Source: Tubiluchus corallicola
Taxonomy: Eukaryota > Animalia > Priapulida
Direction: 5' to 3'
Length of the DNA stretch: 64,000 nt
NCBI GenBank assembly: GCA_030141605.1
Contig: JAQGDQ010000447.1
Span: 62,001-126,000, forward strand
The position numbers and the translations under genes were made by a program. The notes beneath the pieces are model-generated. The model had not been told where the DNA came from, ran no database searches, and saw nothing but the letters and a program-made list of their open reading frames with translations. This document shows positions 60-56,118 of this stretch, one piece after another. The first letter of the stretch is position 1. Each line of letters starts with the position of its first letter.

Positions 60-762
60 AAACAGACAGTAGCGATTAAACACTGCATAGTGAAATCCAA
101 GCCCTGGAGTACTAGTCTAGTTGCTATATAGCAACAGGTTGCAGACAAAATTCCTTGGCATAAAGTTTGAACTCAGTGTCTGGAGACATATAAATCACAA
201 ACAGATCTCGCTTGACACAAATGGTTAGCAGTTAGTAGTCAGCCGGGAAGCAAAAACATTTAATAATTGTACTGTTTTACATTAGTACTACGTTTTAGGA
301 CAGAATGATGCAATATGCATCGTTTTAAAGCTTCAAATTATATAAAAAAAGTTGTTGATAAATGGCTTTGAGCGAAGTAAAAAAATCGTTGTTAAAATGA
401 AACTTACGTCATTAAGTTAGAAAAAGGTGTCAAATGTTCAGTGTCGTTAAAACGAAGCATCGCTAAATGGGAGGCGTTAAGTGAGAACTTACTGTACTAA
501 CGTGCCATGAGTTTGTCGTTAGCGTAACTTATCGGGAAAGTCGCATACAAAAGATTCGTTTTTTTTAAAAAACTGGGTGATAAGAAACCGACGGATAACA
601 GCTGTTTATATATTAAAATGCAGTGCAAAAGCGAAACTAATAGGAAGCAATCTAAACCGTGCAAAAAAAATAACAAAATTTAAAACATTTATCCAACTAA
701 ACATTTCTCCATGGCATAATATCGGCATAAAAAACGTGACAACAAAAACATCTGCAACTCAC

Positions 763-3700
763 CCCATACAAAACTCCACCAATGGGAGGTCCTACCATTA
801 ATCCCAGACCGGTGAATGTTTCTAAAAGGCCCTAAAAGACAAAACGTAATTTGTTTTAAATAAGAAGCAGACTGAAAATTCTATTTCAAATATGCAGTTC
901 CCAAAACTAAAAAATACAATTTAGATTCAGGTAGGTTTATTTACCTTTTGTAATACACAAAAAATCAAGTACATAGCAAAATATGTTTAGTAGTTAGAGA
1001 AAGTGTAACCTAGCCACTGGGGGGGGGGGGGGGAGGGTGAGGCAAGCCAGCTCAACTCAGTGACGGTCCCAAGCCCAGATAAATAGGGAGGGTCAGGGTC
1101 AGGAAGGTCATCCGCCTGTAAAAACTGCGCCATAACCTTCTATGAATGAGTCATGAGACTTGAAGGTAAAGTCCGCAAAGAAGTGGTCAGACCCACTCTA
1201 ATCTATGGGCTAGAAACAGCTTCTCTAAAGAGGAATGAAGAGGGGTGTGGTGGAGATGAGGATGTTGAGACGGATGGTGGGAATAACAAGAAGAGATAAA
1301 ATTAGAAATAATAATATCAGAGGAACAGTAAAAGTAGTGGAAGCCTCGCAAGATTGCGATGGCATGGACACCTGAAAAGAAGAGTCGGTGAAGATCACGT
1401 GGGAGGGGAAGACATAAATGAAGAGATGGTCAACAACAGGAATGCGTGGAGAAGACTTATTCACAACGGCTACCCCGCATAGGGTAAAGCTGGGAAGAAG
1501 AAGAAGAAGAAGTTAGAGAAAGTGTGGCGAAAAAACCTTAGAGGTTAGCAAATCAGCCACCTTTTTAGTTAAAATTAGTACAAGAATATCTAGCGACGAT
1601 TTAAGCTGGTATGAAACACGAAAATCATGTCAATCTGAAAAAATATAATAAGGAAATGATTAAGAAAAAAATAAATCAAACTAGTTTTAAGTGGTAAAGT
1701 AACACGCCAAAATAAAAACAAGAACAAAACAAACATAAGCAAAAGAGATTGAGAGACAAAAAACTATCAGAAGTGGATAATTTAGTGTTGATAGGAATTC
1801 TCACTCCTTTAAAGCAAATAACGAAGGTGCGAAAGGCAGTAGAAACCAACGGTTCAGTTCACATTCAGCTTTTTTACTTACGAAAACGGTCGCCACTCTT
1901 CCCGGAAACTCGTTGGCAATGATGGCAAAAGAAGCCGTTACAAATGCCGTAGCTGCAATGGACTCACATATCCGTACCGCAAAACACAGCCCAACAAATA
2001 CACTGCCATCTGGTGCCAAATTTAGGAACCTGTAACAATCATAACGATAGACAACAGACTTTTTACTTTTCAAAAGTATCTACTTAGTAGTTTAATAGTA
2101 CAAAAATACAAATCTACCAACCCGAACAGTATCGTCGTTGATCCGCACACAAATAAACCAGATATGTACAAAAATCTCGAACCTACTTGCGTTATCTGCA
2201 AAACAAATCAAAACACAGTCAAAGAGTTTTGAAAGGCCGATTCTTTCAGGATCCTACTTTACACATTACAGTACAAAATTTGATAAGTTGTACCATTTAC
2301 TGTCACAAGAAAACCCTTAAAGCTTGTTGTGCTATTTTATGATACTTCCACACATACTTATTAAAACATGTAACACATTTTCCAAAAATAAGACACCTTC
2401 AAACTCAGAAAATATAGGCTCGCCATTGCTGCCTTGAAAACTGAAGTTATATAAATGCAAAATAAAATCACCATCATCAAACTACTTACATATCTTCCAT
2501 AAATAGGTGAACAAAGGAACATAACAAGCTCAAAAACGCTGAAAATGAGACCAATTTGGGCCGTGGTTGCCCCTTTCTTTTCGGCCTAAAAAGAAACACA
2601 AACGTAACAGTATTACCATTGATAGAGTTACTTAAATAACAGTAAATATTTTACTGTATCAAATACGAATGTATGAATTATAATGTAGCAAAAACAACTC
2701 TAAAATGGCAAGGTAACTTTGCACCTCAGCAGGAAAGAATGGTGCTATGAGTGAAAAGCAGACGGTGTGACAGAAGTTGGCCAGAGCCATCTGTACGAGA
2801 ACTCGAATCTGGCGTCCAGTGTACTTGTAGCTACCCGTACTTGACACCTCACTAGGGTTATCTGAAAACACGAAAAAAAAATGATTAGTATATGTATAGC
2901 TATGAAACATGACAAGACTTTAGCTCCCGATTTTAATATTTTTGCAAATAATTGCATGACAGAAATCTTGAAAACAATGCAATGTGTAAATCAGGGGTGT
3001 GCAAATTATCTGACTAGCTAGGCCACATTAAACTTTCCTGTGGGCCACAGGCAGTTTGATCAAGGAGCCAAGTACAGAAAGGCCTAATAACGATTTTTTG
3101 CATCCGACCTGCATACATCATTACTACAACACTCAAGAAACTATTTTAGAAGTTATTAAAATTTATATTACAAACCATATATTTCTACTTTCAGGACAAA
3201 TGCTGGTAATTTCATTACAATGCATATTAGTAATGTGTATCACACAGTCTGTGTAGTACAGTGACATTAAGCTACAACTGTGTTGTAAGGGTTAATAGCA
3301 TCCGATCTAGTAGAAAAAACTACCGCACTATCTTTTGGACCGTGGCACGGACTTCAGCTGGATACACTCAATTAATCCCCCGGGCCGCACTTTTATTAGG
3401 TTGACAAATCTCTTCGCGAGCCGCACAAATTCTCTCGGAGGGCCGCAAGTGGCCCGCGGGACGCAATTTGCACACCCCTGGTGTACATTGTGTGCAAATA
3501 TTCTACGAATTTAACATTTTAAAGGTGTACTTATATGATTTTTATAATCGAGGGCCAATGTTATTTACAAAAACATGATATAATTTGCAAAAACTGAATT
3601 ATTCATTTTCTGCCTCAGTTCCTCTGTGCTGATGGAGAATAGTGGGCATATACTTGATACCCTGCAAGGCATAAATGCTTTAATTTAAGATATCAAAGCC

Positions 3701-5736
3701 AACTTAAAATGCACGTGGGTGCTGACAGCACCAGTGGAGGAACTATCATGACTGCACACATCTATTTCACTTTCATCTTAAAAATGCTGTCGGTCTTATA
3801 TTTTAAATTAATGTACATTTAACATAAAATTGGCAGTTTACCATTTGACAGCTTTCATATGCTGTTGCAAATTTCAGGAACACAGAAACTTAAGAAATAC
3901 AATTACCGAAATTCAAAAACGTTCAAACTTCCTGAAATTAGTGGTGCAAGAGCGGAAGACCTTCTATCGATTTTGTAAAGTGCGCGAATCACATTAAAAA
4001 TGATTACATTCGTTTTTGACAGTCATAAGTCATTTATTTCACCTTACACATTTACAATAGTTTCATGTACAATATCTAGTGAAAGGGCCTACAATGAACG
4101 TAATACAAATAAGAAATACTGCACAGGAAAAGCCTCAAACACTGTTCACTTATACACGAAGGTAAATGTGTTGCGGGCAATCAAAAAGCAGGGCTTGTTA
4201 GATTGTCACACACAGTGGTAGAAAAAAAAGTAATGGAGATAATCTGAAAATTTAAAGTGAATCGTGATAAAAGAAACATTAGTGCTTAAAATGGAATGAT
4301 GTAATGAACGAAGCTCATATATGGGATATATGGGAAGTACTCACCCACCTATGTGTTGAGTGACTCACTTTAGTTTAGTTTATTAATTTATAAGTGCCGC
4401 TTCATTCGGAGGTATCACTTTTGCATCCTAGCAGATCAGTGCATGCTCAAGTACTTAGTAATTATCACGGAATTGAAACCTACTAAGTAAATTTTTTACA
4501 GCTTACAACTCTCTACTTTACATTTTGTACTAATGAGATCAGTGCATGCTCAAGTATTTAGTAATTATCACGGAATTGAAACCTACTAAGTAAATTTTTT
4601 ACAGCTTACAACTCTCTACTTTACATTTTGTACTAATGAGATCAGTGCATGCAGAAGGACTTAGTAATTACCATGGAATTCAACCTACTAAGTGAATGTT
4701 TTTACAGCTTACAACTCTGTACTTTACATTTTGTACTAATGAGATCAGTGCATACTGAAGTACTTAGTAATTACCACGGAATTGAAACCTAGTAAGTGAA
4801 TGTTTTTACAGCTTACAACTCTGTACTTTACATTTTGTACTAATGAGATCAGTGCATACTGAAGTACTTAGTAATTAGCCACTGAATTGAAACCTAGTAA
4901 GTGAATGTTTTTACAGCTTACAACTCTGTACTTTACATTTTGTACTAATGAGATCAGTGCACGCAGAAGGACTTAGTAATTACCATGGAATTCAACCTAC
5001 TAAGTAAATGTTTTTACAGCTTACAACTCTGTAATTTACATTTTGTACTAATGAGAGACACTTCTGCATAGGATTGTCCACTTTTGTCCAGGGGTGCCTT
5101 TTCATAGTTTCTGTTGTTATGTACGCCTAGGCAGCCGGCACGTTCTAGCAACTAATCATTTCCAAGAAAGACTGTTTTGAAGTAATCACAAAAGTTTTAT
5201 TTTAAATTCAATATTACAGAAAGAGTAAAAGACGTGGCGATTTCCTCGCTTCCAATGAGTAGACTAAAAAGACGTGCTCAATTCTGATTGGCTGACGTAC
5301 TAAAATGCATATAACGAAGCCAAGTTTTACAGGCAATTCTAAATAAGCACAACCTTATATTAAAGGGCAAGCAGAGTGAAATCTTCCAAACAAAGACTTA
5401 ATTTCTAATTAAAAATGAACACGAACGTAATAATTACAAGACAGATACCGGTAAATGTAATTATATTATAAACTTTTGCAAATGCAAGTGCACAAAGTAT
5501 TATAGTACAATCGCCTGTTCACGCGTCGCCTGATCACGCGATAAGTTTTCATTCTGCACAGTTATAACAGGCACACAAGTCAGACGACTCAGCCTGCACT
5601 AAATAGTAGTAATTACGTTACCTGATGATTCTTTGGGTCCATTCTGTGACGAATATCTCTTGATTTTCTCACCACTGTGAGTGATGAGTGGAGTATGTTC
5701 TGTAGATTTGCTTAAACTGAGCTCGCTTTCCATCAT
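763..5736 (-). CDS. SLC18B1: MFS-type vesicular amine/polyamine transporter SLC18B1-like, 5' part (6 coding exons; 3' exons outside window)
   Basis: Phase-consistent GT-AG exons: 5736-5622 (MMESELSLSKSTEHTPLITHS...), 2861-2725 (..RQIRVLVQMALANFCHTVCFSLIAPFFPAE), 2585-2490 (AEKKGATTAQIGLIFSVFELVMFLCSPIYGRY), 2195-2122 (ITQVGSRFLYISGLFVCGSTTILFG), 2029-1882 (FLNLAPDGSVFVGLCFAVRICESIAATAFVTASFAIIANEFPGRVATVF), 831-763 (GLLETFTGLGLMVGPPIGGVLYG). The motifs PFFPxEAEKKG, FPxxVATV and LETFxGLGLxxGPPxGG match SLC18B1. Confidence 0.92.
1006..1092 (+). ncRNA. Twister self-cleaving ribozyme (P1-type core, P1 stem absent, one P4 mismatch)
   Basis: TAA-CCTA-GC-[CACTG..CAGTG]-ACGG-TCCCAAGC-CCAG-ATAAA-TAGG-GAGGG. 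P2 CCTA/TAGG and P3 CACTG/CAGTG are perfect; loop TCCCAAGC, ATAAA linker and GAGGG match the canonical twister core. Confidence 0.85.
1007..1510 (+). mobile_element. Non-autonomous, internally deleted RTE-clade retroelement with twister-ribozyme head and (GAA)n tail
   Basis: 15-bp TSD AGTTAGAGAAAGTGT at 992-1006 and 1511-1525. Remnants of the RTE ORF C-terminus (EMRMLRRMVGITRRDKIRNNNIRGTVKV, RLRWHGHLKRR, WRRLIHNGYP). GAA microsatellite tail. RTE-type 5' UTR motif GTCAGGAAGGtCATCCGcctGTAAAA. Confidence 0.88.
2992..3480. mobile_element. hAT (Charlie-like) MITE family B
   Basis: TIR CAGGGGTGTGCAAATT...AATTTGCACACCCCTG; 8-bp TSD GTGTAAAT/GTGTACAT; homologous copies at 29715, 30371 and 54789. Confidence 0.9.
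4434..5056. repeat. Tandem repeat, ~103-105 bp x 6
   Basis: GATCAGTGCA recurs at 4434, 4537, 4640, 4743, 4847 and 4952. Confidence 0.95.
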
Positions 5737-6620
5737 CGTCACTGCCTTGATTTGTTATTAATTCAGCTCTGTTCTTTAATCACACACAGTCCAGGATAGG
5801 ACTGGGCTTACCTGTAAATAATAACATACACTTTTAAAAAGTTATCATTACTTTAAAGACAGCGTAGCAAACACAAATCAATCTTGAAGAGACACATTTT
5901 AAGCATGTTACATAAATTGTAATCAGACATTTCCTATCAATACAAATGCAGTTGTACTGATTACATTTGCTCCTATAGCACTATGCATTCATGATGTTGG
6001 AGCTATACACCGAAATAATGTTGTTACAGCCAAGGCCTACTTTCTTATCTAACCATATACAACCTGACAACATTTGCTGCCATAAAGGTTAGATGAACGT
6101 GACAAAATCTGCTTCAAATAATTCATTACTTACCCAAGTTCAGTATGCAGTAGTTGGAAACTCCAGGAATCTGCATAGAGTTACAAACACAAAAAATTCT
6201 CACAACACGGTTTTCATCTTTAGACGGTGTTTCTCTATACCTATCCAAATTGCTAGGTAAAGTGTAATCATAAAGGCTACTTAAACCTGCCTGCAAGCTT
6301 GTGAGAGTATGAGAACAAGGGTCTATCACAAGCAAATAGAACATGTATAAACTAAAGCAGTGATAAGCTAGTTGGCAGTAGGACTTTAAGCTGTTATTAT
6401 ACTTGCACCAGTGAAGGTATTTCACACATGTCATGCAACTGTACAAGTGGTAGACTATATATATACATATGTTAATTCAATAATTAAAATATGTACTAAT
6501 AATTTACTTCAATGTGAATCTACTGGTCATTTTATAGGAATAACACATTTCAGTTAGCTCTAGCTGACCCGCAATCCCTTACATTTTAGGTGTCACTAGC
6601 TGACAAATGAATTTACATTA

Positions 6621-7195
6621 CAGTCGTGGCCAAAGGTTTAATTAAGCCCACTTCGTACACACGACGGCTCATTAGGAAGGTAATTGAAAGTTGCAAATAA
6701 ATGTTTGTGCTGCGCATGCGCAGGACTTACAAGATGATGACGTCGTCAGTACGGTTGCGGGAATTGTCTTAGATGCGCTCTCGGCAGTAGCTTCCTCCCC
6801 AGTCGTCTGATTATGTTGGATGGTAATTCTAATGAAAGGTAAAAGGATGAGTGATCAAATGTGCATGCGCATATGTCTCTGACTTGATGATGTCATCCTC
6901 GCTGTGACGTCATCAGTGCTTGTTACCATCCAACATAATCAGACGACTGGGGAGGAAGCTACTGCCGAGATCGCGTCTAAGACAATTCCCGCAACCGTAC
7001 TGATGACGTCATCATCTCGTAAGTCCTGCGCATGCGCAACCCAAACATTTATTTGCAATTTTCAATTACCTTCCTAATGAGCCATCGTGTGTACGAATCG
7101 GTCCACCATGAGGGAAAATATATGGTATTGAATACCAAAAAAGCTCAAAATTCACGTCGTAATCACAGGTGGGCTTAAACTTTTGGCTACGACTG
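6621..7195. mobile_element. Tc1/mariner-type MITE with a long internal inverted repeat
   Basis: TA-CAGTCGTGGCCAAAgGTTT...AAACTTTTGGCTACGACTG-TA; inner arms ~6652-6826 and ~6923-7097 are near-perfect reverse complements. Confidence 0.9.
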
Positions 7196-8164
7196 TAAAA
7201 GCAGTTCATGAGTGAAGACAGGTGATCATCATCAACATCATCATTATCATCATCATCACACTGTCATTGTCAATGTCTTCATCATTATCACCATCATCAT
7301 CATCAAAGCCCATTATATCTATTGAGAACATACATTGTGCACACAGGATTCTAATAAGAAGAATTCTGCACTTAAGACAGCTGAAACATGTTTAATCCAG
7401 CAAATACTAGCTTTACTTACTACTGCTATGCCAGTGGCTTGTCAGCATCACTTTAATAAGAGGAGAAAATACATGTTTCATGCCGTTTGCTTAAAAATAT
7501 TATGCTAAATCAAACTTCTGTACAAGTCAATGTAAACATATAAACTATTTGCAAAACCTAGTTTGTATATCTATATGTTTGATAAGTATATATCGTTCGC
7601 TCACTGGACAACAAAAAATTAGGTTCAACGTAGCATTTCATTTGTCACACCCATTTAGAGACCAGGTTGAGATGAAAATCCCCCTGGCAGCCTCTGCATC
7701 ACTGAACCATCATCTGACATTGAATTACAGGAACTTTGTAAAGTATTAGGTCAAAGGAATGTCACACATTTTGGTAAAACAAAGAAACTTACAACTCAAA
7801 CAGTCAAACTACCATAAATTTAGAAAGAAAGTCATTGGAGTGTCAAATTGTATTCCAGCTGATGCTGATGATTTACCCTGGCCAAAAATTGACTAGAAGC
7901 CAGGAATTAAAATTTTAGAAAAAAATAGCAAATCTTTGCAAGGTTATTCTAACGATATTTTGAAATGAAACGAATTTCAATAATTAGTATCTTACAAGGA
8001 TAATCTTGTTTTTATAACATGACAACTTCATTTGACGGTGCAAAATCACATTCCTTTCATCAACAAGTCCGAAATGAAAAACCATCACCTACGTAATCAT
8101 CAGCTTAGAATGCATCGTCATACTCTTTTATTTTATTTTTCATTCAGTTTGGGATGATGTCGGG

Positions 8165-8515
8165 ACTTCTAGTAAAAAAGTCACAGAAAAAAAACACAGG
8201 TAAAAAAGTCACGCAGAACAGGAAATAACTCTAGCCGTACCTCTAACCCTAAGATATTGAACAAAACGTGATTTTTTTCATGTACCTAATAATAATGCCA
8301 TCATACATAAAAAGTATTGTCAATATGTACAACTCATGTATTGCCAGTTAATAACTGATGTAAAATATTTTCTGTTTTATTACTTTAATTGTTTATGGTG
8401 CTTAAATAAACTGCAACTGACTCGAACAGTTTCGTACAATTACTTGACTTACTTTTCTAGCCAAAATTGTGAGCTTTTTTCTCTGACTTTTTACCTATGA
8501 CTTTATTAGCGGTTA
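8165..8515. mobile_element. Unclassified non-autonomous DNA element with GGTAAAAAAGTCACA subterminal repeats
   Basis: Inverted AAAAAGTCAC/TGACTTTTT motifs at the two ends; homologous to 39293-39830. Confidence 0.6.
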
Positions 8516-11059
8516 TCAGTGTCCGATAACAGAAAAGTAATTAGTATTTCACAAAACACAATTTGATGGGAAAGTTCCTAGGGAACCAATGATGGTTGTC
8601 GATTAATCTTGAAGGCACAGAAAATTGTTTACAGCTTAACTAGTTTGAATACTTAGATCTATACAACCAGATTTGCAAAAGTCATCAAAGACTGTAGATT
8701 TGGCAAGCTTGTTAAATCCCACTTGCTGAACCACGAAGTTGATACAAATTTCCTTCTGAATATTATTACCTTACTACTTTCCCATCCATTTTCCTAGTCC
8801 CAAAACAAGTTTAACGTAACAACTGAATTTTAACCTAACCAGGTAAACATTAACATTTATTTCAATCACAATGGGCCTAAATACGCTCAATGTCTTTTCA
8901 TGATAAAAGTGCTGCATTGGCCGAGAACTATTCCCTAACCACCAGGCCGTTTTTATGTACAAACGGTTTCATAATTTCGAATGCACCCTGACAGCTTAAT
9001 ACTTAGTCACCTAGCGACAAGAAATCGGATAATCAGTATATATATATATATATATCTTTTGCTGAAGTGGCATGTTCCTCACCACCATCCATTTGCGTGG
9101 AAATCACATTTCATCACAAGTATGATTTGACACTTCGGGACTTCTATACAAATTGCAATATGCAAAAACTATTCACACTCACAGTGTTACTTCACTTGTC
9201 TTTACAGATTTTTGCATACCAATAAAATAATAATGTTCAAGGCTCAGAGGTCAGGCTAGTACAATTCCAACTTTTCAGAACTTATTTACAACAGCTATTA
9301 ATTAACAGGCAATTTCAAGAGCAGCATGAAATTACCAGGTTGCTAATTGTAATAAATTGTAGTCCAGACTCATACGTGTACATCTGGCACGAAAATCAAG
9401 CCTGGAGTACCTGCCACTGTATTATTTGTCTACGAATATCAAAGCTGCTTACCTGCATAAACGAAGTCTGCTTGATGGTAGCATAACTATTGTGTAAGCA
9501 TTTGCAGCATGCATTTTAAACAAAATTTCTTCGGTTTCACAAAGTTGTGCAACACGTTGCGAACCTGACTGTGGCTGTCAGCTGCTACCAGGAATAACCA
9601 AAAGATAACATTCCGCGGCAAAATTTCTCTGCTACGACGTGTCTTAACAATTTCCCAGAATCAAGGGGAAAGCAAAAAAATAATTATTGCTCTTTAGCTT
9701 GCCCTTCAAGATTAATTAGGTACACAAAAATTGCCTTTGCATTTTAAAAGCAACTTTTGTCTACCTAATCAAGCTTGAAGGGCCTAGAAATCGGTGCGCT
9801 GCTAAAATGAACTTTCAAAAATAATGAATAGTGTGTACAGTGTGGTGGCTGAGTAGCAATTTGAGTTTGATTAGCAGACGATAAACGGTTATTTACATTT
9901 AATGACACTTACCTTTAATAATCAATCATGCTGTTTGTTTAAATGTTTAATGCCAATGCTGAAGTTAGTGTGAAATTCGTGACGGCGATTTTTTAGATGA
10001 AAACTGAGTTGGTTTTCACTTTTTACTCTTACTTTTTGGCACTACATTATTCAGGCTGATACTATATTTAACATGCAATTTCATTATGACTAGGCGTTAT
10101 AAAAGTCTAAAACGTAAAAGACTTTCTCATGTTGTTGCTTTTCTTATTTCTACCCTCGGTGCAGAGCAGTAGTTTATAATTATTATAAAACCAGTTTCTT
10201 CCTCTGGCCCATTATAAAATTGCTCGTCTGTGTAGTTATTTACCAGAAAATTCTTTCCTTGTCCATAGCAACTTCTGCTCCAATGACACATTGTTTCTGT
10301 CATAAACTAATTAATTAGATAGTATAGGCACAAAAATTCTATTTTTGGGAACTGTATTCATATTTCTACCTTTATATTGCAGTCCTTTAAATTACTCCAA
10401 AAACTGGCCTTGTCTGAGATGATGTGTGCAAAAATTTGTTGCTAGCGGTGTTGTGTAATTTCTCTGCAATTGACCATTGATTATAATTTTTAATGTAGTA
10501 CTTATAACTGAAATGCTACTAATTTCCAGGCAACTTAAAAAGTTTTTACGCAAGAGGTAATTTAACTTTGCTTGGAATTTGTAAAATTGTCTAAGACACT
10601 GATATATATATCATTTTTTTATGTTTTTTCTAAAAAATAAGCTAAACTTAAGTTGGCAGTTTTCTAATTATTAGTAATTTGAAATGTTTTGTTTGGCAGG
10701 TAGTTGAGCCTAATCAATTTCTTTGTAGGGATTATCTTACATTTAGGCACAATAGGCAGATAAATAAAAAAACATGGAGAAGTTGCATTTTCTGCTCAGA
10801 TTAAGCTTTTTGCTATAAATATGAGTATTGTGCAGTTTGCAGCAGTTAATTATTTTGTTTGTTGGTTAATATTAATAAGGAAGTGAAAATTCACGAGGGA
10901 ATCGACGTTTTTTCCTTCAAAAACAACATTTGTTTCTTAAATTCCAGAAGTATTTCCCTTTGAAATTATGACTTATGTTAGCTACCGTTAGAGCCACTAC
11001 TTAAAATCACTATACCTGTAGTAGAACACTGTAATCCATTAGGCTGTATCAGTCCTCTA

Positions 11060-12365
11060 ACTGATTGTAAATAACTGAAAAACTCATACATGCTTTCGCT
11101 ACATCCAAACTTGATTATTTCAACAGTTTGTTTTTTGTACTTCCTGAATATGAAAATCGTAAACTCCAGCTAATTCAGAACTCTGCTACTCGTCTCGTTA
11201 CAAAAACAAAAAAATATGATGATATTGCACTTACAAAATACTATATGCTTTGGCACCTGCAATAGTATTGCGTATGTCACAGATCTTTTGATACGTCGTA
11301 ATATAGACCAAACACTTTTTGCTCTGACACTAATGAACAAATTCATTTACCTCAGCCAAATATAGTATTCTGTGATGAGAAAGCTTTTTCTGTCTGCTGT
11401 TCTCTACGTTTCTGGAACAGACATAGACACAAACATAGACATTTTTTATTTATCTCCTTATTTACAGCAAAATACAAATAGACTATAATTGTCATAATTA
11501 ATGAGGATAAATTATGCATAAAGAAAAGAGTTAGGGGGGTGCAGGAGAAAGGGTAGCCAAAGACCGATTGGTCATCAAGTCAGCTGCCCTTCTCAGGTTA
11601 GTATAAATTGTAAAAAAAAATTGTAGCACTGCCAATTATACCTTGGGATAAGAAAATCGACTGCTAATGTAAATCTATAAGGGAAGAAATTAAACTTGAA
11701 AGCGAAGTAACTAAACAAGCTGTGAGACAAGGAAACATGATAAAATGAAAAATATGCATTGATGATCAACCAAACATGTAAATCGTATAACTAGCCGATT
11801 ACAGCATAAACAAACCATAAAATTAAGTCCAACTAAAAGACGTTTATAAAGCGTACATAAGAAATCAGCAAAGGAAACAAAATATGCGTGATAAAATGAA
11901 ACTAAATGTAATGAAACAAAAATATGCAATAGTATTCTGTCAAATTATGTCTGTTAAGCATAATGCCATTAGGACTATGGAACAAAAGAACTAATATAGA
12001 GAAGCAGAAGTGGAGTAAATAAAATAGGCAATGAAATACGAGTATGTAAGTAAATAGACAATATGACTCAATGAAAAATATGAAACTTATGATTACTGTG
12101 AAACAATGAGCAAAATAATATATGTAGTGAGAAAAACATAATATAAGGAACTGCTTACTTGTTGCTGTATGCTCTGCAAACTCTTTGATTCTTTTAAACG
12201 ACATCTTAAATCATATTTGTTTAGATGCACTAAATAGAGTGAATTAATATTTAATTTTTTTAATGTATCTTGAATTTCAAATGTATTTTAATGTTCAACG
12301 TGCTGGTATTTTAAACAATATAGTGCGCTATATGAATGAATTTTGCATTACATAACACATTACAC
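11060..12365 (+). mobile_element. Decayed L2-clade LINE 3' fragment, interrupted by a second insertion (~11440-12150)
   Basis: Translates AFATSKLDYFNSL..LPEYENRKLQLIQNSATRLVTKTKKYDDI; resumes ..SFKRHLKSYLF near 12190; L2-type GCGCTATA...(CATTA)n tail. Confidence 0.75.
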
Positions 12366-13431
12366 TTGTGAAATTGCAGCTCCATCTATCCGTGACCATC
12401 GTCACTGATGAGCAGTTATATTGCAGCAGCTCCAGGATTTGCTTCTTTGTTGCATAACTTTATCTTCTAAATATAGCCAGAGAACCAGCCACCAGTTGCT
12501 AAGTGGAATTTGGCTAAATTAAATAGACGATGTGTAATCGTTTGTCGGGGGGAGCTGGTTAGATTCTCAGGCCATTGTGTTTACTGTTTAGTACGCAAAC
12601 AGTTGCAATGTTGCTGGTAACTTCGCGTCTTGTGCAGTTAAAATATTTGAGGTTGAGAGTAAGAATGTTGTTAACGAACCACGTGGTATAATTAGCAGAC
12701 GAACATAAACTACAGGTTAATATTCTAAGTTCGTTGCTTGTTCTAACCGCTAGCAACCTGTAGTGGTCAAACTCAAACACAGTCATATATTATGGTAGTT
12801 CAATGTGCAATATTTAAACTGGAAAACAGCTGACTCGTGGCAGTCTTATCGGCTAGAGATAAACACAGGCGCAGAATAGACTTAACTTGCGCTGCAGCCT
12901 TTATTACGTGAATTTCTGAGTCTTTTATGTCTGATATTACAGCCGTTTAGCGTGGCCTTTTGGCTGCCGCACTACATTTTTTAGCTGTAGTGAAGGTTTC
13001 TACTTGACGAACTATTATTTTGCGAAGGATATCGAGTTGTTTTATTGTATCAATATAAGTCACGCGTTATTTTGCTCATGAAACAAGCAGGCTGCTAGAC
13101 TCGCCTGGGGTGATGATGTGAAATTACTGAACAGTTTGCATGATTGCTTTGAACGGATTAAGAAAAAAATCGTCACTCGACAAGATTCAGCTGGAAAATC
13201 ATTGCGCGTTGACACGGAATGTGTTGGCTGTTTAGAGAATTTTGGTGAGGAATAATTCATTTTTTTATTACGGGCACTAAATAAGGTTTATAATTGAAAC
13301 ACCACAACATAACTGGGACTTATTATAATAAAAGAAGGTTTATCTATATACCCTAATAAGCCTTCTTTTAATGTACAAAGCAGTTCAATTCCTTTAACTT
13401 TATTTCCAAACACTTAGCTATTTGTTGCCGC

Positions 13432-13841
13432 ATCAATTTCTTTTCTACACATCTGCTTAATCATTACCTATTTGGCTTTTTGTTAATACACAATTAGTGC
13501 ATGTTAATAATTTACTGTATCAATTTCTTTTCTACTGGTCTGCTTAATCATTACCTATTTGGCTTTTTGTAAATACATAATTAGTGCATGTTAATAATTT
13601 ACTGTATCAATTTCTTTTCTACTGGTCTGCTTAATCATTACCTATTTGGCTTTTTGTAAATACATAATTAGTGCATGTTAATAATTTACTGTATCAATTT
13701 CTTTTCTACAGGTCTGCTTAATCATTACCCATTTGGCTTTTTGTACATACATAATTAGTGCATATTAATAATTTACTGTGTTAATTTCTTTTTTACTGGT
13801 CTGCGTAATCATTACCTATTTGGCTTTTTGTAAATACATAA
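13432..13841. repeat. Tandem repeat, 87 bp x ~4.7
   Basis: ATCAATTTCTTTTCTAC at 13432, 13519, 13606 and 13693; variant at ~13780. Confidence 0.95.
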
Positions 13842-14063
13842 TATAAGATAAGATAATATTTATTTTCATCGGTATGATTTAAAACAGTACATATTTGTAA
13901 AAAATATATCAAACATAATGTATATGAGTGATAACATGATAATAATATGCACTTCTTAAAATCTTTTGGATGCCACCAGAGAAATAGTGCATAATTAGTG
14001 CATAATATTCTACTCTTAGGCTCTGCCTAATGCCCATATAAACTTGTTGTGTTTGTAAAAATT

Positions 14064-14106
14064 TACCACTGATGATGACAGCAGTAGCTCTGTAGAAACG
14101 TTTGAC
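14064..14106 (+). ncRNA. Degenerate minimal type-I hammerhead ribozyme
   Basis: CCA-CTGATGA-TGACAG-cagtagct-CTGTA-GAAA-CGTT-TGA: both conserved boxes present, stem II ACAG/CTGT, palindromic ACGT stem III; stem I and the stem II closing pair are mutated. Confidence 0.55.
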
Positions 14107-14805
14107 ATAATTTTCTAATTACGTGAATTAAAACTAAATAAAGTTGTGGTGTTTTAATCATGAATGTTTTATTGTATTTTGGTTAAATAATTCAGTTATT
14201 TTGACTATTCTGGTTTTCGCGTTCGTCTGTTTTGTCACTGAAGACCCAGTCAGCTCATATATGCTCGAGCCTTATAACAAGATGTATCTTAAAATCAATA
14301 TTATTAAAATAATTTTGATCTGAATTTTTATTCCTCATTTAAATTTATTTCTTTTCTTACAGTCTTTTTCTTCTCCAAAAAAACTGCTCTAGGAAAATGA
14401 TAAAATCATTACAAATAGAATATTGATTATCTTTCATTAATTATTATAAGACCTAGTTTTATTTACACTAAACTCAGTGGTTACTGCATGTATATTTTTG
14501 GCAAGTGAAGTTGAGAAAAAACGAACTCATTGAGTAGATGGATGGGTGACTGCTGAACTCAATAGCAATGTTAGTGATTTCACTTGATCTATTGTCAATG
14601 GCTGTTTACTTTGCAATAGGATGAATGCACATCTGAATCTGATCGAGACGCTTCTGTTGATCATGTGTTTAGAGAATACTCCTCGAGCTAGGTTTCGGTC
14701 CCTCCATAAGCGTATATCTTGAGTAGGTCCTTTCTTTTGGTGCTGGATTGCAGAGTACCAAATTGCGTAGAAAAATATTTATCGTGTAATAGATGTGTCA
14801 GATTG

Positions 14806-14807
<2 letters not shown>

Positions 14808-14847
<40 letters not shown>

Positions 14848-14860
14848 CGTGTGTGCGTGT
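14808..14860. repeat. (TG)n microsatellite
   Basis: Visible directly in the sequence. Confidence 0.98.
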
Positions 14861-16150
14861 AAATAATTAACATTAGCTTAGCTACTTTGCAAACAAAGAA
14901 TCAGAGACAATAAATACCACAGTCAATGCTCAGTAGCAACATTTTTAAAAATTCTTCGTTATAATACGCTAAGTTTTAATTTATTGGCAGGTGAAATCAT
15001 CCACACAGATGACCGTAGGCTATTTTTGTTGTCAAGATTGCATTTTTGCTTAATAGCTGTAAAATTACTGCGCCAATTACTGTCAATTGAGGTTTAAAAT
15101 CTTGGCTTGTAAGTAACCCCATAGGGTAGACAAACTTGCAAAAAACTGCACTGCTGCAGCTCGTGTGCGTGGAGGACAACGTTAGGGCGTCTTCACATTT
15201 ACGCGATTCATGCGCACAGGTTAAGCGGCTAAGCTGTTTGCGTATTTCAGCTCAGTGAAGCTAAGCGGTTTGGCAGACCTATCGTTATCAGAGCTATAGC
15301 TATTAACAATGACAGCACAGAAGCTGCCTTGGTGTGTATGTGCCTTTAGGTTTAGCGCTGAATTGTCATATCCATCGAGTAAGCTAGTTAAGCACACAGA
15401 TAACTAGCTAAGCAGCCAAACACACGAATGAGCAAATCGCACACTCTACCACGTAAAATTAAAGACCCATACCACCAACCAGTCTGCCAGTGAAGTACTT
15501 AGTCAACCAACTGATTCGCCAGCTCGCCAGTTAGGAAATCAGCCAACCTGCTAGTCAGCTAGGCTAGCTAAATGAACATATGACCAATTGGTCAGTCAAT
15601 GAAAATGAATAAAGCAATCACAACCGCACGAAAGACAACTAAGCAAGCTACCAAATGCCAACGAAGTAGCCAACCAACTTGTCGATCAACTAGGTAGTCA
15701 GCTAGCAGTCAGCCGGCCGTCAGATAACTATAAGCAGAGAAGTTAAGTCACAAATCACTCACAGAATCAAAGAAGGTTTATAAAATATACATTCTAGTAC
15801 TTGGAAGAATCTTCCTACATTCTTTATATAATTACGCTTAAACGTGTGACTAGAAAAAAATGCTGTGACTTTTCAAGCGTTATGAAGGTTAATCGTTTCT
15901 CTAACCAAAGAAAAGCCATCATTGGATTTTGTGTTTGTACGACACCAGCCCACTAATGATTACTGGGTACTTGTAGTATAATTACATAGCGGTATGGTTA
16001 CTGGAGTGCTTAGGGGGTCGGGCTGTAGTTGAGCAGTAAAAAAGAGCTAGTCGTGTCGTCACTACCAGTTCATCTGTGTGTACGGACACTCTTGGAAGTT
16101 TTTTTAGTGGTCAGTAGGAAATACGCGCTTTCTGGAAACTTCGGCTAAAA

Positions 16151-19621: not shown

Positions 19622-20284
19622 ACATGAGTTCCGTTATCAATGATTTTATGGCACGGCATGTTATGTGGATAGGCCTGTGCCTTAAACTAGGTTTTCATTT
19701 CATCTCTGCTTACCATGTCTGCTTTAAATTCAAATAAGGTTACATATTATGTCACATTGTGCATTACATGTATATGACATTTTTCACTTGTTTGTATTTT
19801 GATTTCTCCATTTTTAACGTGTCAAAGTTTTTTTGCTCTGTTTGCCTATTTTAACCTTAGTTTATAATCTTAGTTTTCTAATTATTTTTGTGTTTCTACT
19901 TGTTTTCTTTATAAATGTATCGATTAATTACACAATGTTTAATGGTTTTTGTTTATATTTGTAAATTTTATGTTTGTGTACTTACATGTGTTTATTTTTT
20001 CTTAATTTTAAATGACTGAAACCACCAATCAGGACCTCGCTGCAAATGAGCTTTGCTCGATCAAATTTATCCTGAATAAATGTCTCCTCTTATCGTTTCT
20101 TAAGGCTCCAGGTTCCAAGCTGTTAAGCTGCTTCAATGCTGCATGCACATGGTGCTCTTGTGTCAATCAACTAATGGTGATTTTCAACTTTGTTTATTTT
20201 GCAGATACGAAGCTGTCAAATGCGGCAGATCACACTAGTAATAGCTTTGCTATTCTCCGCTAATCGAAAGAACATATCGTGGTA

Positions 20285-23200
20285 ATGCCTGACGGTGAAC
20301 TAGGTGACGCTGATTCCGAGAGTTTGAATTGGCAGAAATGTCAAAGGACATTCAGTGGCGAGACATTCACACACGTGTCCACTTGCTCGTCGTACGGTGA
20401 TCCTATTCCTCCAGCACCTGATGGCGGATGGGGTTGGGTGGTCATTGCTTGCTCGTTCGTTGCTCACTGCGTGGCGGACGGCACCACATTTGCTTTTGGC
20501 GTCCTCCAGATCAACATGGTGCATTTCTTCAACCAAGGAACGGGCAAGACGGCCTTCGTTGGTTCGTTGTATACGTCTGTACCGCTTCTTGTTGCTCCAC
20601 TAGCGAGCGTCGTTGTGGAACGAGGCGGATGTCGTAAAGCCGTCATTATCGGAGGTGTCGTTGCGGCTATTGGATTCATACTCAGCACTTTCGCTCCCAC
20701 TGTGGAAGTGCTCTGTATTACAATAGGGATCATATCAGGTCTCGGTCTGTCGCTCATCTTTGTTGCCGCTATCGTCATCTTGGCGTTTTACTTTGAGAAA
20801 AGAAGATCGCTTGCCACGGGTCTGGCAACATGTGGTTCCGGGATAGGATGCTTCATTTTTGCCCCGATACTTGAACACCTTATAGATAGTTACGGCTTTC
20901 GGGGAACGTGTCTGATGGTCGGTGGCATATTTCTTCACCTGTGTATCTGCGGAGGTTTAATGCGGCCTCTTGAGTGGTCAAAGAATGTAAGAGTTTGTGC
21001 CAGTGCCAGTAACAGTACTATAAACACCCCATCAAACTCGCCCATTAAAACCACAGTACTTTCCACGAAAAATACAGGTTCAGGATCAGACATCCCTAGT
21101 GGCGAATATTTGCGTCTACTAGGTGGTGACGTTGTAGTGCCATGTGTAACAGAACATAAAAGTGCAAGACGGCATAGTGTTTCTATGAACGATCTTTCCG
21201 TGGCACCACGTCAGCTCTTTAGGACCGCAGAATTACCTAGCATTTCAGACGATCATAACGAAAATGTAGTGCATAATGGCATAATACCGAATGGTCACCC
21301 TTCAAAGACTACAGTGACCGAAAGAACTACTAGTATATGCATAGATAATATAGCTAATAATAGTGCAAACGAAGTGCCTAATAAATCAGTGCATTTAGAA
21401 GACGCTGTAGTTCCTCCTACCGTACGCATAGATGATGTAGATTTTGATGACTATGTAACTGAAGTGCAAATTAGTAAAGAAATGGCATTAAAAAACTCGA
21501 AACACTTACACAAACTGCTAACTCACAGCACAACTTGTCTTGATGACACAAACATTGCTTCCAACTGCAACTACTTTCATGGAGCAACATCATCTGGACT
21601 ACAAAGCCTCGGTGAAACAAGAGGTAAAAGCAGCCTTGAACGCGACTGCAGAAATACTTCCGTTGCGGCACAAAATGGTAGCGTGAAGCAAGCAAAGAGT
21701 CTTCCAAACATTAATGTTGTAAAGGCAGCTCCCCATAATCGAAAGCAGGCCAGTCAACGTCATCGTAACTCGGCTTCGTATGTTTTTCGAAGACCGTCCA
21801 TTGGACGAGTCTTGAGCATTCCTTGCCCTTCCCTTAATGTCAGTACGCGACCGTGCAAACACAGTCCGGCTGCTTCGTCACAGCAGCGCAATTCTCCCAT
21901 AGAAACTGTGTGGCTTAAGAGAAAGGATTTAATGCCCAATGTAACGAAAGGTGTAGGAATGAGCTTATTGGAACGACTAACAAAAAGAGAGCCACATGCG
22001 CAGCCATTACACCTGAACAGGTAATTAATTTTGTTCAAATTTGTACTTGTATATGTAGATTGTGGTCGTCTAACATTCTAAAATAAAGTTTGTGTCTTGG
22101 AGTTACCTGTGGCCTGCTAACATTAATTTAAATCAAATCACTTGCTACTAATAGCATCACTTAAATTTTTTATCTCTGTCATTTCTGCTTACAAAGAAGG
22201 ATAATATTGACAAAAGTGTCATTAGCTGAACAAGTCTATAAAATCTAATTTAATTCAAGGTCCAACAGCAATGACATTTGAGCCAAATTGGGGTGAACGC
22301 GAATTTAAACTAATATCAAACGTTCTTGAACAAATGGTTAATTTGACCAGCCTCATTCTTGGTAGCTGCCATTCTTCGAAGACAAAATGCATTTCCAAAA
22401 ACCATATGGGATGATTATTTTCCCACAGTCAACTGGCATTTCCCTTATTTCAATTTCGCCTGGTCCGTTACTCTGTGCTGATGCGCAAGTGAAGGAAAGA
22501 TAGCTACTGAAGTTGGGCCTATTTTAATAAGCCTTGACTTGGCCGTATTTGCAAGCAAAATATTTCGCGTGGTTTTTTAACTTTCGTGTATTAATTAAGT
22601 AAATTCAAAAAGCACTGTTAGGTTGGCAAACCTGCTTTACTAATAACTTGCGCATGCGTTTCTGCTGTACCATAATAAACAATGAACAGTACCATGTTCA
22701 AGACCCATGTTATACCATGACTATGATGTATTTTTAGTTTGGTATCGTTATTGGACCAATTCCGCATTTTAAAACCGACCAATCTAAATGAATCGAAATT
22801 GTTTGCGGGTTTTGTACGTGATATTTATTTAATGTTACAGACCGAAGACGGTAAGCTGTCCCGACGTCTACCATTGTTACCAGAAAATGTCTCATAAACA
22901 CCATCACCGAAAATCAAAGAAATCAGTCGAGGACATCATCAAGATCTTGAAAAGCATGTGTAACTTCTCTATGCTCAGCAATCTAACATTTCTCCTCTTC
23001 TGGATCTCCAACCTCGTTCTTTACATGTGGTACGACATTCCGTATCTCTATATCGCCGACCACGCTACATCCATCGATATATCTGACGAAAAATCCACGT
23101 TCTTGTTATCCATAATAGGCATAGCTAACACAGCTGGGCTCATACTGTTGGGCTATGCCGGTGACCAGCCTAATATCAATCCAACCTTCATCTATGCTCT

Positions 23201-25540
23201 TTCTATATGTGTATGCGGTGTCGCCACTTTCGTGGTTCCGTTCGTCTACTCCTACACTCTTCTCGTTATATACAGTTGCATCTATGGTTTCTTCATCAGT
23301 GGAAATTATGCGCTCACATCCGTCATACTGTGCAACTTGATAGGCGTGAACCGCCTCACTGCGGCGTACGGACTGATTTGCATGGGACAAGGAATTGCTA
23401 ATCTGTTGGGTCCCCCGTTAGCAGGTATGTATGGAAGAACTGACCCGCTCAGTGGGATAATTAGAAATTAAACTTTATTTTTCTACAAATAAAAAGACAA
23501 GTACAAGACAGTGCCTGAAACAACAAATACTTTTTATAGAACTAAAGTCTCTTAATATTAAAACTAGGGCTTTGTAGAACTCAGTTAAGCGTGAAATTGG
23601 GGCCTTCAATTTAAGCGTCAATCTTCGCACCCAGATTCAAAAATATGCTGGATTTTAACAGGTAAAGAAGAAAAATTGTTGAAATAAGTACGACAAAATA
23701 TCTTTCTGCACTTGTAACAATTCTCAAAGTACATCTAATAGCTTCGGATGGAAAAAGGTACCTAGGAATATTTACCAAGAGATCGAGATAAATTATACAA
23801 CATACATGTCGTTCCTTTGCCTGTCCCAGCTTATCATGTATATTGTGTACCGGAAGTGCAGCCAAGTTTTAAAGTTAGGGGAAGCAAGCACTTAAAAAGG
23901 TGCCTTGACATATACCAAGCAATTTTTAACACAGTGATTATACATTTTAATTTTATGTTTAAAATGAAAACACAGTAAAGTTTTGCAGTAAGCGTAAAAA
24001 TCTCAAAGCATAATAAAGACGTGTGTTATTTAATTATTTTAATTTTAAAAGTAAAATGGAAACAAAGTGAAGCATCGTGAAAAATGTATCACGAACGCAC
24101 TACAACAGAACTACTACAAAAATCTATGATAGTATTATTGTTTTTCTAAACCATGAACGCACTACAACAGAACTACTACAAAAATCTATGATAGTATTAT
24201 TGTTTTTCTAAACCATGAGCGCACGACAACAGAACTACTACAAAAATCTATGATAGTATTATTGTTTTTCTAAACCATGAGCGCACTACAACAGAACTAC
24301 TACAAAAATCTATGATAGTGTTATTGTTTTTCTAAACCATGAGCACACGACAACAGAACTACTACAAAAATCTATGATAGTATTATTGTTTTTCTAAACC
24401 ATGAGCGCACGACAACAGAACTACTACAAAAATCTATGATAGTATTATTGTTTTTCTAAACAATCTTAACAACAGACATGTAAATTTTGTAACACCCTCA
24501 TAATAAAACGTAAAGACCATGAAACTTGCCTTTGCAATATATATATATAATTGACAGTAGGCCTACTACTACTAGACAATTGTGTGACAGTGCTCATTTC
24601 AAGAACTCGGCAGTCGGGTTAGTCAAACAATGACTCCAGAAAATTCTTCCAAGACCCGGCGATTAAAAAAATAAAAGAAACATTCAACTTTCAGCTAAAG
24701 AGTTGAAAAAAATTATTGAAAAAGTGCCAATTTTGAAAAATATGCTCAGTAGGAGCGGTGCTCCTCTGCCCCCCCCCCTGTTAGCTATGCCACTTGTGAT
24801 CCTAGTAATCCTAGTAATTCGCGCTTGTCGTTTCCTTCTTTTGACACGATCGTGTCTTCCGATTGGTCTCTCGGCTGGCGAGATTTTGCATGATTATTAG
24901 GATACTTGTAAAATGGCTCGTTGATTATTTGTACTCGTGAATTCATACACATTAACCCCTTCCTCTACTGGAATTTAATAAAAATGTTGGAGAGAAAATT
25001 GCACAACATGCTAACCTCCAACAGAGCGATATGAGCAGCCTTATACAATGAATGTTCCTTTGTGTCAAGGTTAGTGGACGGGTGAATTTGTTCGCTTGGT
25101 GATGTTACATCTTGTATTGCATAAAGACAACTCAGTATCTTCTTCACTCCTAGAGTTTGCGATCGTCCTCGCTGTTGCCGAACAGGTGTCGAAATTTTAC
25201 CTGCGAAGCGCTGTGCCTAAACGCGTCCATGCCACATGGGCTTAAAATTAACATCTCCAAAGACAAATTTAGTGATTTGTGAATAATCAAGTTGTTATGA
25301 TTCTTTTCTGCAGGTTGGTTGCATGACTTGACGGGAAACTACCACACGTCGTTCTACGTCGCCGGAGTGTTCATCTTCGCATCCGGTCTCATCCTGACTG
25401 GCATGCCCTTTGCCAGAAGTCTGCAGATGCGCAGAAAAATGTCACAACTTCAACAAGACAAGACAGACTTTGCCGGTAACGCACTGCTCGAACGTCGCGA
25501 TGACGCCTTGATCGTATTAGAATATGAAACGACTTTGTAA
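20285..25540 (+). CDS. SLC16 monocarboxylate transporter (invertebrate long-loop, MCT12/14-like), 848 aa, 3 coding exons
   Basis: Exons 20285-22020, 22841-23424, 25314-25540 sum to 2547 nt in frame with GT-AG boundaries. SLC16 signatures PPAPDGGWGWVV, YFEKRRSLATGLATCGSGIG, GIANLLGPPLAGWLHDLTGNY; long central loop with SCPD motif; ends ETTL. Confidence 0.95.
24093..24461. repeat. Tandem repeat, 62 bp x 6
   Basis: Unit GA(A/G)CGCAC(T/G)ACAACAGAACTACTACAAAAATCTATGATAG... starting at 24093, 24155, etc. Confidence 0.97.

Positions 25541-28343: not shown

Positions 28344-56118
<27,775 letters not shown>

What the first reader, a model, noticed from the sequence alone, without database searches (positions are those of the whole stretch)
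992..1525. Twister-headed mini-retroelement whose 5' end is exactly the ribozyme cleavage product
Seen: a 504-bp insert between perfect 15-bp TSDs. It begins AACCTAGC and contains a full twister core (P2 1009-12/1084-87, P3 1015-19/1058-62, loop TCCCAAGC 1067-74, GAGGG 1088-92), then a fragmented RTE ORF C-terminus and a (GAA)n tail. Known: twisters cleave at U|A of the UAA motif, occur in 5' UTRs of RTE retrotransposons, and P1-less mini-twisters remain active. Inference: this is a promoter-less, non-coding RTE parasite that is cut out of host read-through transcripts by its ribozyme and copied in trans. The boundary set by the TSD coincides with U|AA, and the last T of the target site restores the U at -1, so a new insertion could rebuild its own cleavage site. 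This copy has a C-A mismatch in P4 and a long G-run in P3, and lies antisense to SLC18B1, so it would not cut the host pre-mRNA.
Basis: partly seen in the sequence, partly recalled or inferred. Interest (0 to 1): 0.85.

Follow-up and report, generated by a model that had tools for sequence, protein, structure and literature searches.

The report
Twister-headed mini RTE retrotransposon family
This 504-base intron insertion is a worn copy of an abundant, protein-less jumping element that keeps only the two ends of a roughly 3-kb retrotransposon and starts exactly at the cut site of a predicted self-cutting twister RNA, which likely makes its front end; both halves of this design are already published separately.

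Summary
A 504-bp insert (1007-1510) sits between perfect 15-bp duplications, antisense in an SLC18B1-like intron. It carries a twister core, a 49-nt leader plus ATG, a broken RT C-terminus and a (GAA)n tail. It is a family, not a one-off. Summed contig depth rises over a thousandfold inside it, contigs from two studies bridge the ~2.5-kb deletion, and 3 of 7 listed contigs with foreign 5' flanks start exactly at 1007. The Rfam hit is weak (21.9 bits, cut-off 67.2). A related coding element from another organism also has its duplication abutting the twister AA. The claimed novelty is mostly published: duplication at the cleavage site, with any base at -1 (Perere-3, Liu 2021), bipartite non-autonomous RTEs (Kojima 2018) and ribozyme-headed R2 SIDEs. 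I found the twister-plus-bipartite combination in none of 7 literature searches, but this scan noted it in two other genomes. Cleavage, transcription, promoter absence and the autonomous partner are untested. Verdict: a new variant of a known kind, interest 0.35.

The parts
992..1006 (.). 5' target-site duplication (15 bp); its last T is the -1 base of the predicted cleavage site
   Evidence: flank-to-flank joints without the element in paralogous repeats, table 5
1007..1092 (+). P1-less type-P1 twister ribozyme (predicted): AA 1007-8, P2 1009-12/1084-87, T2 GC 1013-14 with GC 1073-74, P3 1015-19/1058-62 with a long loop holding a 15-G run (1019-33), P4 1063-66/1075-78 with two mismatches in this copy, L4 1067-74, GAGGG 1088-92
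   Evidence: family majority C at 1063 and G at 1077; compensatory pairs against related RTE copies
1093..1147 (+). RTE-type 5' UTR and start codon (ATG 1142-44, 49 nt after GAGGG)
   Evidence: 47-nt spacing and ATG AAT in related coding loci L006/L013; DNA match to the leader of L001
1147..1152 (+). approximate main internal-deletion junction: start codon joined to RT C-terminus, about 840 codons (~2.5 kb) missing relative to P0001; shared by the family
   Evidence: bridging contigs X1 record 7 and X3 record 15, and 17 + 4 loose ends at 1152-1153
1150..1482 (+). broken RT C-terminal coding remnant (equivalent to about residues 843-988 of P0001), with an 8-nt deletion near 1242 (this copy), a ~16-nt deletion near 1347 and a ~90-nt deletion at 1407-1411 (both also in other copies); stop at 1480-82
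1483..1510 (+). short 3' UTR and (GAA)n tail; the first two bases of the 3' duplication continue the tail register (2-nt microhomology)
   Evidence: similar UTR motif and microsatellite tails in L001, L003, L009
1511..1525 (.). 3' target-site duplication (15 bp)
832..1881 (-). host intron of an SLC18B1-like gene (exons 1882-2028 and 763-831), holding the element in antisense

Best explanation
The insert is a decayed copy of an abundant non-autonomous, internally deleted (bipartite) RTE-type retrotransposon whose 5' end lies exactly at the cut site of a predicted twister ribozyme, which likely frees the element RNA from longer transcripts before a full-length partner's enzyme would copy it into new sites. 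Shown: the anatomy, the shared deletion, the shared 5' end and the intact twister core in other copies. Inferred steps: (1) Transcription that starts upstream runs through a copy in the sense direction. (2) The P1-less twister cuts 5' of the AA at 1007, with whatever base the target supplies at -1, leaving an RNA that begins with AA. (3) The endonuclease-RT of an autonomous RTE recognises the retained 3' ~360 nt, nicks a target, primes on the GAA tail by microhomology and copies the short RNA to its end, giving a 15-bp duplication that abuts the AA. This copy has since drifted about 4% from the family majority, has lost two P4 pairs and carries a G-run predicted to trap the pseudoknot loop. 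It is probably a poor or dead ribozyme, and being antisense it would not cut SLC18B1 pre-mRNA.
For: Family: summed contig depth is about 90-105 in unique flank against 160,000-790,000 across 1070-1513 in run X1; 6-8 against 10,000-86,000 in X2; 10 against 37,000-876,000 in X3, an independent study (the tool warns this is no copy number). Shared main junction: X1 record 7 (1105-1210, 11 differences, 1 gap) and X3 record 15 (1117-1194, 6 differences, 1 gap) bridge it, 2 of 16 pieces listed out of 1140. In addition, 17 X1 and 4 X3 contigs run from the leader into the RT remnant. Shared 5' end: of the 7 listed pieces with 19 or more unaligned upstream letters, 3 start exactly at 1007 and 1 at 1003; depth in X1 steps from 362 (993-1000) to 15,060 (1009-1016). 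Ribozyme: over 96% of X1 depth reads C at 1063 and G at 1077, restoring P4. P2 and P3 show 5 two-sided changes among 4 related sequences (small sample). Independent case: L009, a ~2.6-kb endonuclease-RT copy from another sample, has a 14-bp duplication (13 of 14 identical; L009 73-86 and 2662-2675) ending at the base before its twister AA. Literature: the same geometry and in vitro activity for Perere-3 (PMC8501958); P1 is dispensable (PMC5408937, PMC11662667).
Against: The Rfam score of this copy is far below threshold, and its folding energy is no better than shuffles. 3 of the 7 pieces with foreign upstream sequence start inside the ribozyme (1024, 1070, 1086), so some copies may be 5'-truncated. 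In X3 the 3' end is 6 to 20 times deeper than the ribozyme, so other elements share the tail there. Only contigs, not reads or a genome, were available, so the 5'-end count is tiny and is a subset chosen by the tool.
Confidence: 0.8

Rival explanations
1. The family is real, but its 5' end is set by an internal promoter that starts transcription at the first base, and the twister is a vestige or serves translation of the parent element only.
For: No transcript or cleavage data here. LINE 5' regions are held responsible for transcription (PMC5786205 section 23). This copy's ribozyme looks damaged.
Against: The boundary falls on the exact scissile bond here, in 3 other copies, in L009 and in Perere-3. 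The family majority keeps P4 paired. No Pol III B box or tRNA head was found.
Confidence: 0.11
2. This is a one-off: a full-length RTE inserted here and lost its middle afterwards, and the high depth comes from full-length or truncated LINE copies.
For: Some contigs carry the undeleted coding sequence before 1412 (6 in X1, 4 in X2, 10 in X3), so less-deleted relatives exist. The 8-nt deletion is not shared.
Against: Diverged contigs from two studies bridge the same main junction. X2 record 11 and X3 record 20 bridge the two smaller deletions with one gap each. Depth is about equal on both sides of the main junction in X1 and X2.
Confidence: 0.04
3. The short form arose once and was multiplied as DNA, as cargo of the older repeat in which it sits, and not through RNA.
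For: The flanks are themselves repetitive (depth up to 9,200 at 1514-1550 in X1).
Against: The element is about 100-fold deeper than its flanks. Contigs join the two flanks without the element (5 joints over 3 runs, sides 21-29 letters). Other copies have unrelated upstream flanks beginning at 1007.
Confidence: 0.03

Closest known systems
T-variant twister ribozymes heading the RTE-clade LINE Perere-3 of Schistosoma mansoni (Liu et al. 2021, PMC8501958; parts 1, 3, 4, 5, 6 of 9 read)
   Same: Twister at the 5' end, target-site duplication directly against the AA of the cut site, target DNA supplying the -1 base and the 5' strand of P1, short repeat tail, non-specific targets, proposed transcription from host promoters.
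   Different: Perere-3 is described as a coding element. This one lacks ~2.5 kb of the ORF and cannot encode the enzyme; it has a different P2 and a long P3 loop. In the parts read, non-autonomous derivatives are not described.
Bipartite non-autonomous RTE elements: Bov-A, RTESINE1/2, WALLSI3, MAR4_MD (Kojima 2018, PMC5786205; passages and section 23 read)
   Same: Only the 5' and 3' parts of an RTE retained, no small-RNA head, presumed Pol II transcription and copying in trans. That paper already links ribozyme-bearing clades to bipartite forms.
   Different: The ribozyme cited there is HDV-like, not twister. Here the 3' part includes ~330 nt of decayed RT coding sequence.
R2 SIDEs, short internally deleted elements (Eickbush and Eickbush 2012, PMC3414825; abstract read)
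   Same: 5' self-cleaving ribozyme joined to a LINE 3' end, released from a co-transcript and copied by an autonomous partner.
   Different: HDV-like ribozyme (per PMC6765202 passage), R2/R1 clades, fixed 28S rRNA target, described as rare. This family is dispersed, abundant and twister-headed.
Truncated twisters at RTE 5' ends (de la Pena and colleagues, stated as 'in preparation' in PMC7761336; passage read)
   Same: States that truncated but active twisters are conserved at the 5' end of RTE-superfamily elements and likely process them from upstream transcripts.
   Different: One sentence without data; non-autonomous forms are not mentioned in the passages seen.

Membership tests
type-P1 twister ribozyme (RF03160) | Rfam gathering score | tested here: not met
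   21.9 bits against 67.2, E 0.28; two related RTE-head twisters also fall short at 51.3 and 42.5
type-P1 twister ribozyme (RF03160) | conserved loop nucleotides: AA after the cut, L2 GC, L4 UCCCAAGC, UAAA, GAGGG, able to form pseudoknots T1 and T2 | tested here: met
   roles of T1/T2 from PMC5408937 passages
type-P1 twister ribozyme (RF03160) | stem P2 (4 bp) and optional P3 | tested here: met
   5 two-sided changes among 4 sequences (small sample)
type-P1 twister ribozyme (RF03160) | stem P4 | tested here: inconclusive
   two of four pairs broken in this copy; restored in over 96% of X1 depth; P4 mismatches are generally tolerated (PMC11662667)
type-P1 twister ribozyme (RF03160) | stem P1 | tested here: not met
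   AGUG against UCAG gives one G-U wobble; P1 is dispensable
type-P1 twister ribozyme (RF03160) | self-cleavage at N|A | not testable with these tools
   needs a cleavage assay
RTE-clade LINE derivative | homology to the RT C-terminus of single-ORF endonuclease-RT elements of about 3.2 kb | tested here: met
RTE-clade LINE derivative | short 3' UTR with microsatellite tail and long target-site duplication | tested here: met
   that these typify RTE is recalled
RTE-clade LINE derivative | phylogenetic placement of the RT with named RTE references | not tested
   no hit was named RTE; the clade label rests on architecture, the twister link in PMC8501958 and recall
bipartite non-autonomous LINE (SIDE-like) | 5' end and 3' end of the parent joined by an internal deletion shared among copies | tested here: met
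bipartite non-autonomous LINE (SIDE-like) | no coding capacity for the enzyme | tested here: met
   longest ATG-initiated frame 48 aa; no endonuclease or RT core
bipartite non-autonomous LINE (SIDE-like) | copies at different sites with their own duplications | tested here: inconclusive
   different 5' flanks seen; both ends of another copy never seen on one contig
bipartite non-autonomous LINE (SIDE-like) | autonomous partner in the same genome | tested here: inconclusive
   undeleted coding sequence before 1412 in 6, 4 and 10 contigs; no genome held
Pol III SINE | tRNA/7SL/5S head with A and B boxes | tested here: not met
   no B box on either strand by a simple pattern, no tRNA, no such Rfam hit
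retrozyme (ribozyme in terminal or tandem repeats) | two ribozyme-bearing repeats | tested here: not met
   one ribozyme only; no long direct repeat besides the duplication

The most novel reading that the evidence does not exclude
Thousands of promoter-less, twister-armed parasites are scattered through this animal's genome. Each re-arms itself from target DNA and cuts any host transcript that reads through it in the sense direction, so selection has left an antisense bias in introns and a ribozyme-killing G-run expansion in P3. The family would then be a natural genome-wide test of whether a 5' ribozyme is what lets some LINE clades spawn bipartite parasites.
Probability: 0.25. Interest if true: 0.65.

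Novelty: new variant of a known kind. Interest (0 to 1): 0.35.

Why it matters
It extends twister-defined 5' ends from a coding RTE in blood flukes to an abundant protein-less derivative in another animal. That fits an open suggestion in PMC5786205: the LINE clades that make bipartite parasites are those with 5' ribozymes. With an assembly, the many copies would allow direct tests of 5'-end precision, -1 base preference, intronic orientation bias and ribozyme decay. As it stands it joins two published ideas rather than adding a new mechanism.

Tried and rejected
No whole genome is held, so the genome-wide copy table could not be built. No second copy lies in the window. Pattern scans for the family's twister found nothing in metagenome contigs, prokaryote genomes or viral contigs; these collections are not the right ones for an animal repeat. 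No RNA holder was listed, and run X6 (guessed RNA) gave 0 laid contigs; this says nothing about expression. Run X5, with the same species label, held only 8 partial matches, so it was not used. Minimum-energy folding does not show the twister (z +1.2 to +1.4), as expected without pseudoknots and with the G-run. A sigma-70 promoter scan is irrelevant to an animal and was at chance level. A 3-beta-HSD Pfam hit on the 48-aa frame (E 0.018, below cut-off) was rejected as chance. Look-ups of earlier findings by sequence and by 'twister' in this genome returned nothing. Rejected readings: Pol III SINE, retrozyme, small functional peptide (the ~16-nt frameshift near 1347 is also bridged by another copy), and a requirement for U at -1. 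Supplements of the papers were not opened, and Repbase/Dfam could not be searched, so an unpublished database entry for this family is possible.

Full report
Observation. The 15-mers at 992-1006 and 1511-1525 are identical and enclose 504 bp. The bases after them differ, so the 5' junction is fixed at 1006|1007. The twister core motif occurs once in the window and in 0 of 100 shuffles. Rfam finds twister-P1 only weakly (1039-1096, 21.9 bits, E 0.28, cut-off 67.2) and misplaces the 5' strand. The insert lies between minus-strand exons 1882-2028, which hit SLC18B1 at E 1e-8, and 763-831, so it is intronic and antisense. One correction: P4 has two broken pairs, A1063.G1078 and C1064.A1077.

Anatomy. 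After GAGGG (1088-92) come 49 nt and an ATG at 1142. Related coding loci L006 and L013, 2 of 36 fetched, have a twister, 47 nt and an ATG AAT that opens the long ORF, and L001 matches the leader at DNA level. A few bases after the ATG the sequence jumps to the RT C-terminus. The closest protein, P0001 (988 aa, endonuclease plus RT, on a 3.3-kb contig), aligns only from residue 843 on, so about 2.5 kb is missing. A profile of 63 relatives (P0001 plus the first 62 of the other 85 hits) maps four collinear pieces. From these I derive further losses of ~16 nt near 1347 and ~90 nt at 1407-1411; an 8-nt loss near 1242 is seen. The longest ATG-initiated frame is 48 aa, and there is no B box or tRNA head. 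The tail is (GAA)n, and the first two bases of the 3' duplication continue its register. None of the hits was named RTE: the clade label rests on architecture, the published twister link and recall, not on a tree.

Is it a family? No genome is held, so I laid contigs of public runs on the locus. X1 and X2 are one sample and may be the source; X3 is another study. Summed depth is about 90-105 in unique flank and 160,000-790,000 across 1070-1513 in X1; 6-8 against 10,000-86,000 in X2; 10 against 37,000-876,000 in X3. The tool warns that this is no copy number, but it fits thousands of copies. Two diverged contigs, 2 of 16 listed from 1140, bridge the main junction: X1 record 7 and X3 record 15. 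A further 17 X1 and 4 X3 contigs run from the leader into the RT remnant with one extra base. X2 record 11 and X3 record 20 bridge the 1347 and 1407 deletions with one gap each; X1 record 3 spans 1347 with 9 gaps and may be a variant. Against uniformity, 6, 4 and 10 contigs carry undeleted coding sequence before 1412, which I read as the CINGDLREK stretch matching P0001. In X3 the 3' end is 6 to 20 times deeper than the ribozyme. Longer relatives, possibly the autonomous partner, therefore share the tail. Contigs also show other deletion forms (for example 1146-1262 and 1153-1367). The 8-nt deletion is absent from the other copies seen, and two contigs are 11 nt shorter across the G-run region. 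At 22 of the 27 listed positions inside the insert most X1 depth differs from this copy, about 4% divergence; a few of these sit beside indels, and 82 rows were not shown.

The 5' end. Of the 7 listed pieces with 19 or more unaligned upstream letters, 3 start exactly at 1007, 1 at 1003 and 3 inside the ribozyme (1024, 1070, 1086). Depth in X1 steps from 362 to 15,060 across the bin that holds 1007. That the three exact pieces do not extend to T1006 suggests other bases at -1; this is inferred from alignment ends. Five joints over three runs link the two flanks without the element (sides 21-29 letters, below the tool's caution line of 30), showing empty paralogous sites of an older repeat into which the element inserted. 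An independent case came from the metagenome loci. L009, an old endonuclease-RT copy of ~2.6 kb (the same 5' flank recurs in L008 and L012, with a matching hit in L010, so counted once), has a 14-bp duplication with 13 matches that ends at the base before its decayed twister's AA.

The ribozyme. Over 96% of X1 depth reads C at 1063 and G at 1077, restoring both P4 pairs. Among four aligned sequences P2 and P3 show five two-sided changes, more than in 500 of 500 shuffles, but the sample is tiny. P1 is one wobble pair. P1 is dispensable (PMC5408937 and PMC11662667, passages), and the latter finds P4 mismatches mostly tolerated and the pseudoknots sensitive. In this copy the G-run is predicted to pair with the L4 CCC needed for T1 with probability 0.94, and the twister-compatible fold costs 6.8 kcal/mol over the minimum (pseudoknots not modelled). 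I infer that this copy is weak or dead while the family majority is competent.

Mechanism. Shown: bipartite anatomy, shared deletion, shared 5' end in a small sample, intact core in other copies. Inferred: upstream read-through, cleavage before the AA, recognition of the 3' part by a partner's enzyme, and target-primed copying to the RNA's end (confidence 0.8). Rivals: internal promoter with a vestigial ribozyme (0.11), one-off deletion (0.04), spread as DNA (0.03).

Comparison with what is known. Liu et al. 2021 (PMC8501958; parts 1, 3, 4, 5, 6 of 9 read) report twisters at the 5' end of the RTE element Perere-3, duplications directly against the AA, target DNA rebuilding the 5' side of the ribozyme, and cleavage with any base at -1. 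PMC7761336 (passage) states the twister-RTE link generally. PMC5786205 (passages and section 23) lists bipartite non-autonomous RTEs and connects them to 5' ribozymes. R2 SIDEs are the direct functional precedent (PMC3414825, abstract; PMC6765202, passages); PMC4035085 (abstract) covers ribozyme-bearing L1Tc/ingi elements. Seven searches showed no paper on a twister-headed bipartite RTE; most hits were seen only as listings, supplements were not opened, and repeat databases were not searchable. Earlier notes of this scan describe the same design in two other genomes; these are unchecked AI notes and I do not count them as support.

Verdict. It works like an R2 SIDE with a twister in place of the HDV-like ribozyme, and it meets most of the tested features of a bipartite non-autonomous LINE. 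It is a new variant of a known kind, interest 0.35.

Noticed in passing
window 922-991 and 1514-1700: The target is itself an older middle-repetitive element (raised depth, many variant contigs, empty paralogous sites); no second copy in the window.
   Followed up: partly
window 1009-1032: Summed depth of about 15,000 in X1 across the G-run suggests that long G-runs in P3 occur in a subset of copies, not only here; poly-G sequencing artefacts are an alternative.
   Followed up: no
window 1115-1487: Contigs show other internal-deletion forms of the same element (joints 1146-1262, 1151-1487, 1153-1367, 1274-1366; loose end at 1115), suggesting repeated shortening.
   Followed up: no
L009:73-2675: Old endonuclease-RT element with a decayed twister sharing this family's P3 loop, a (GAT)n tail and a 14-bp duplication abutting the AA.
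   Followed up: partly
L013:81-156: The twister head appears to carry a short tandem duplication of its P3 region and lacks the normal 5' strand.
   Followed up: no
window 20264-23471 (+): Long frames of a transporter-like gene (looks like a monocarboxylate transporter; label recalled, not tested).
   Followed up: no
window 48668-56130 (-): Exon-like frames resembling a TEX2-type lipid-transfer protein (label recalled, not tested).
   Followed up: no
window 4433-5056, 13432-13842, 24090-24464, 34070-34795, 35879-36369: Tandem minisatellite arrays with periods of about 60-105 bp; several dispersed repeats also recur, for example 2992-3448 / 29710-30086 / 30371-30838 / 54784-55166.
   Followed up: no
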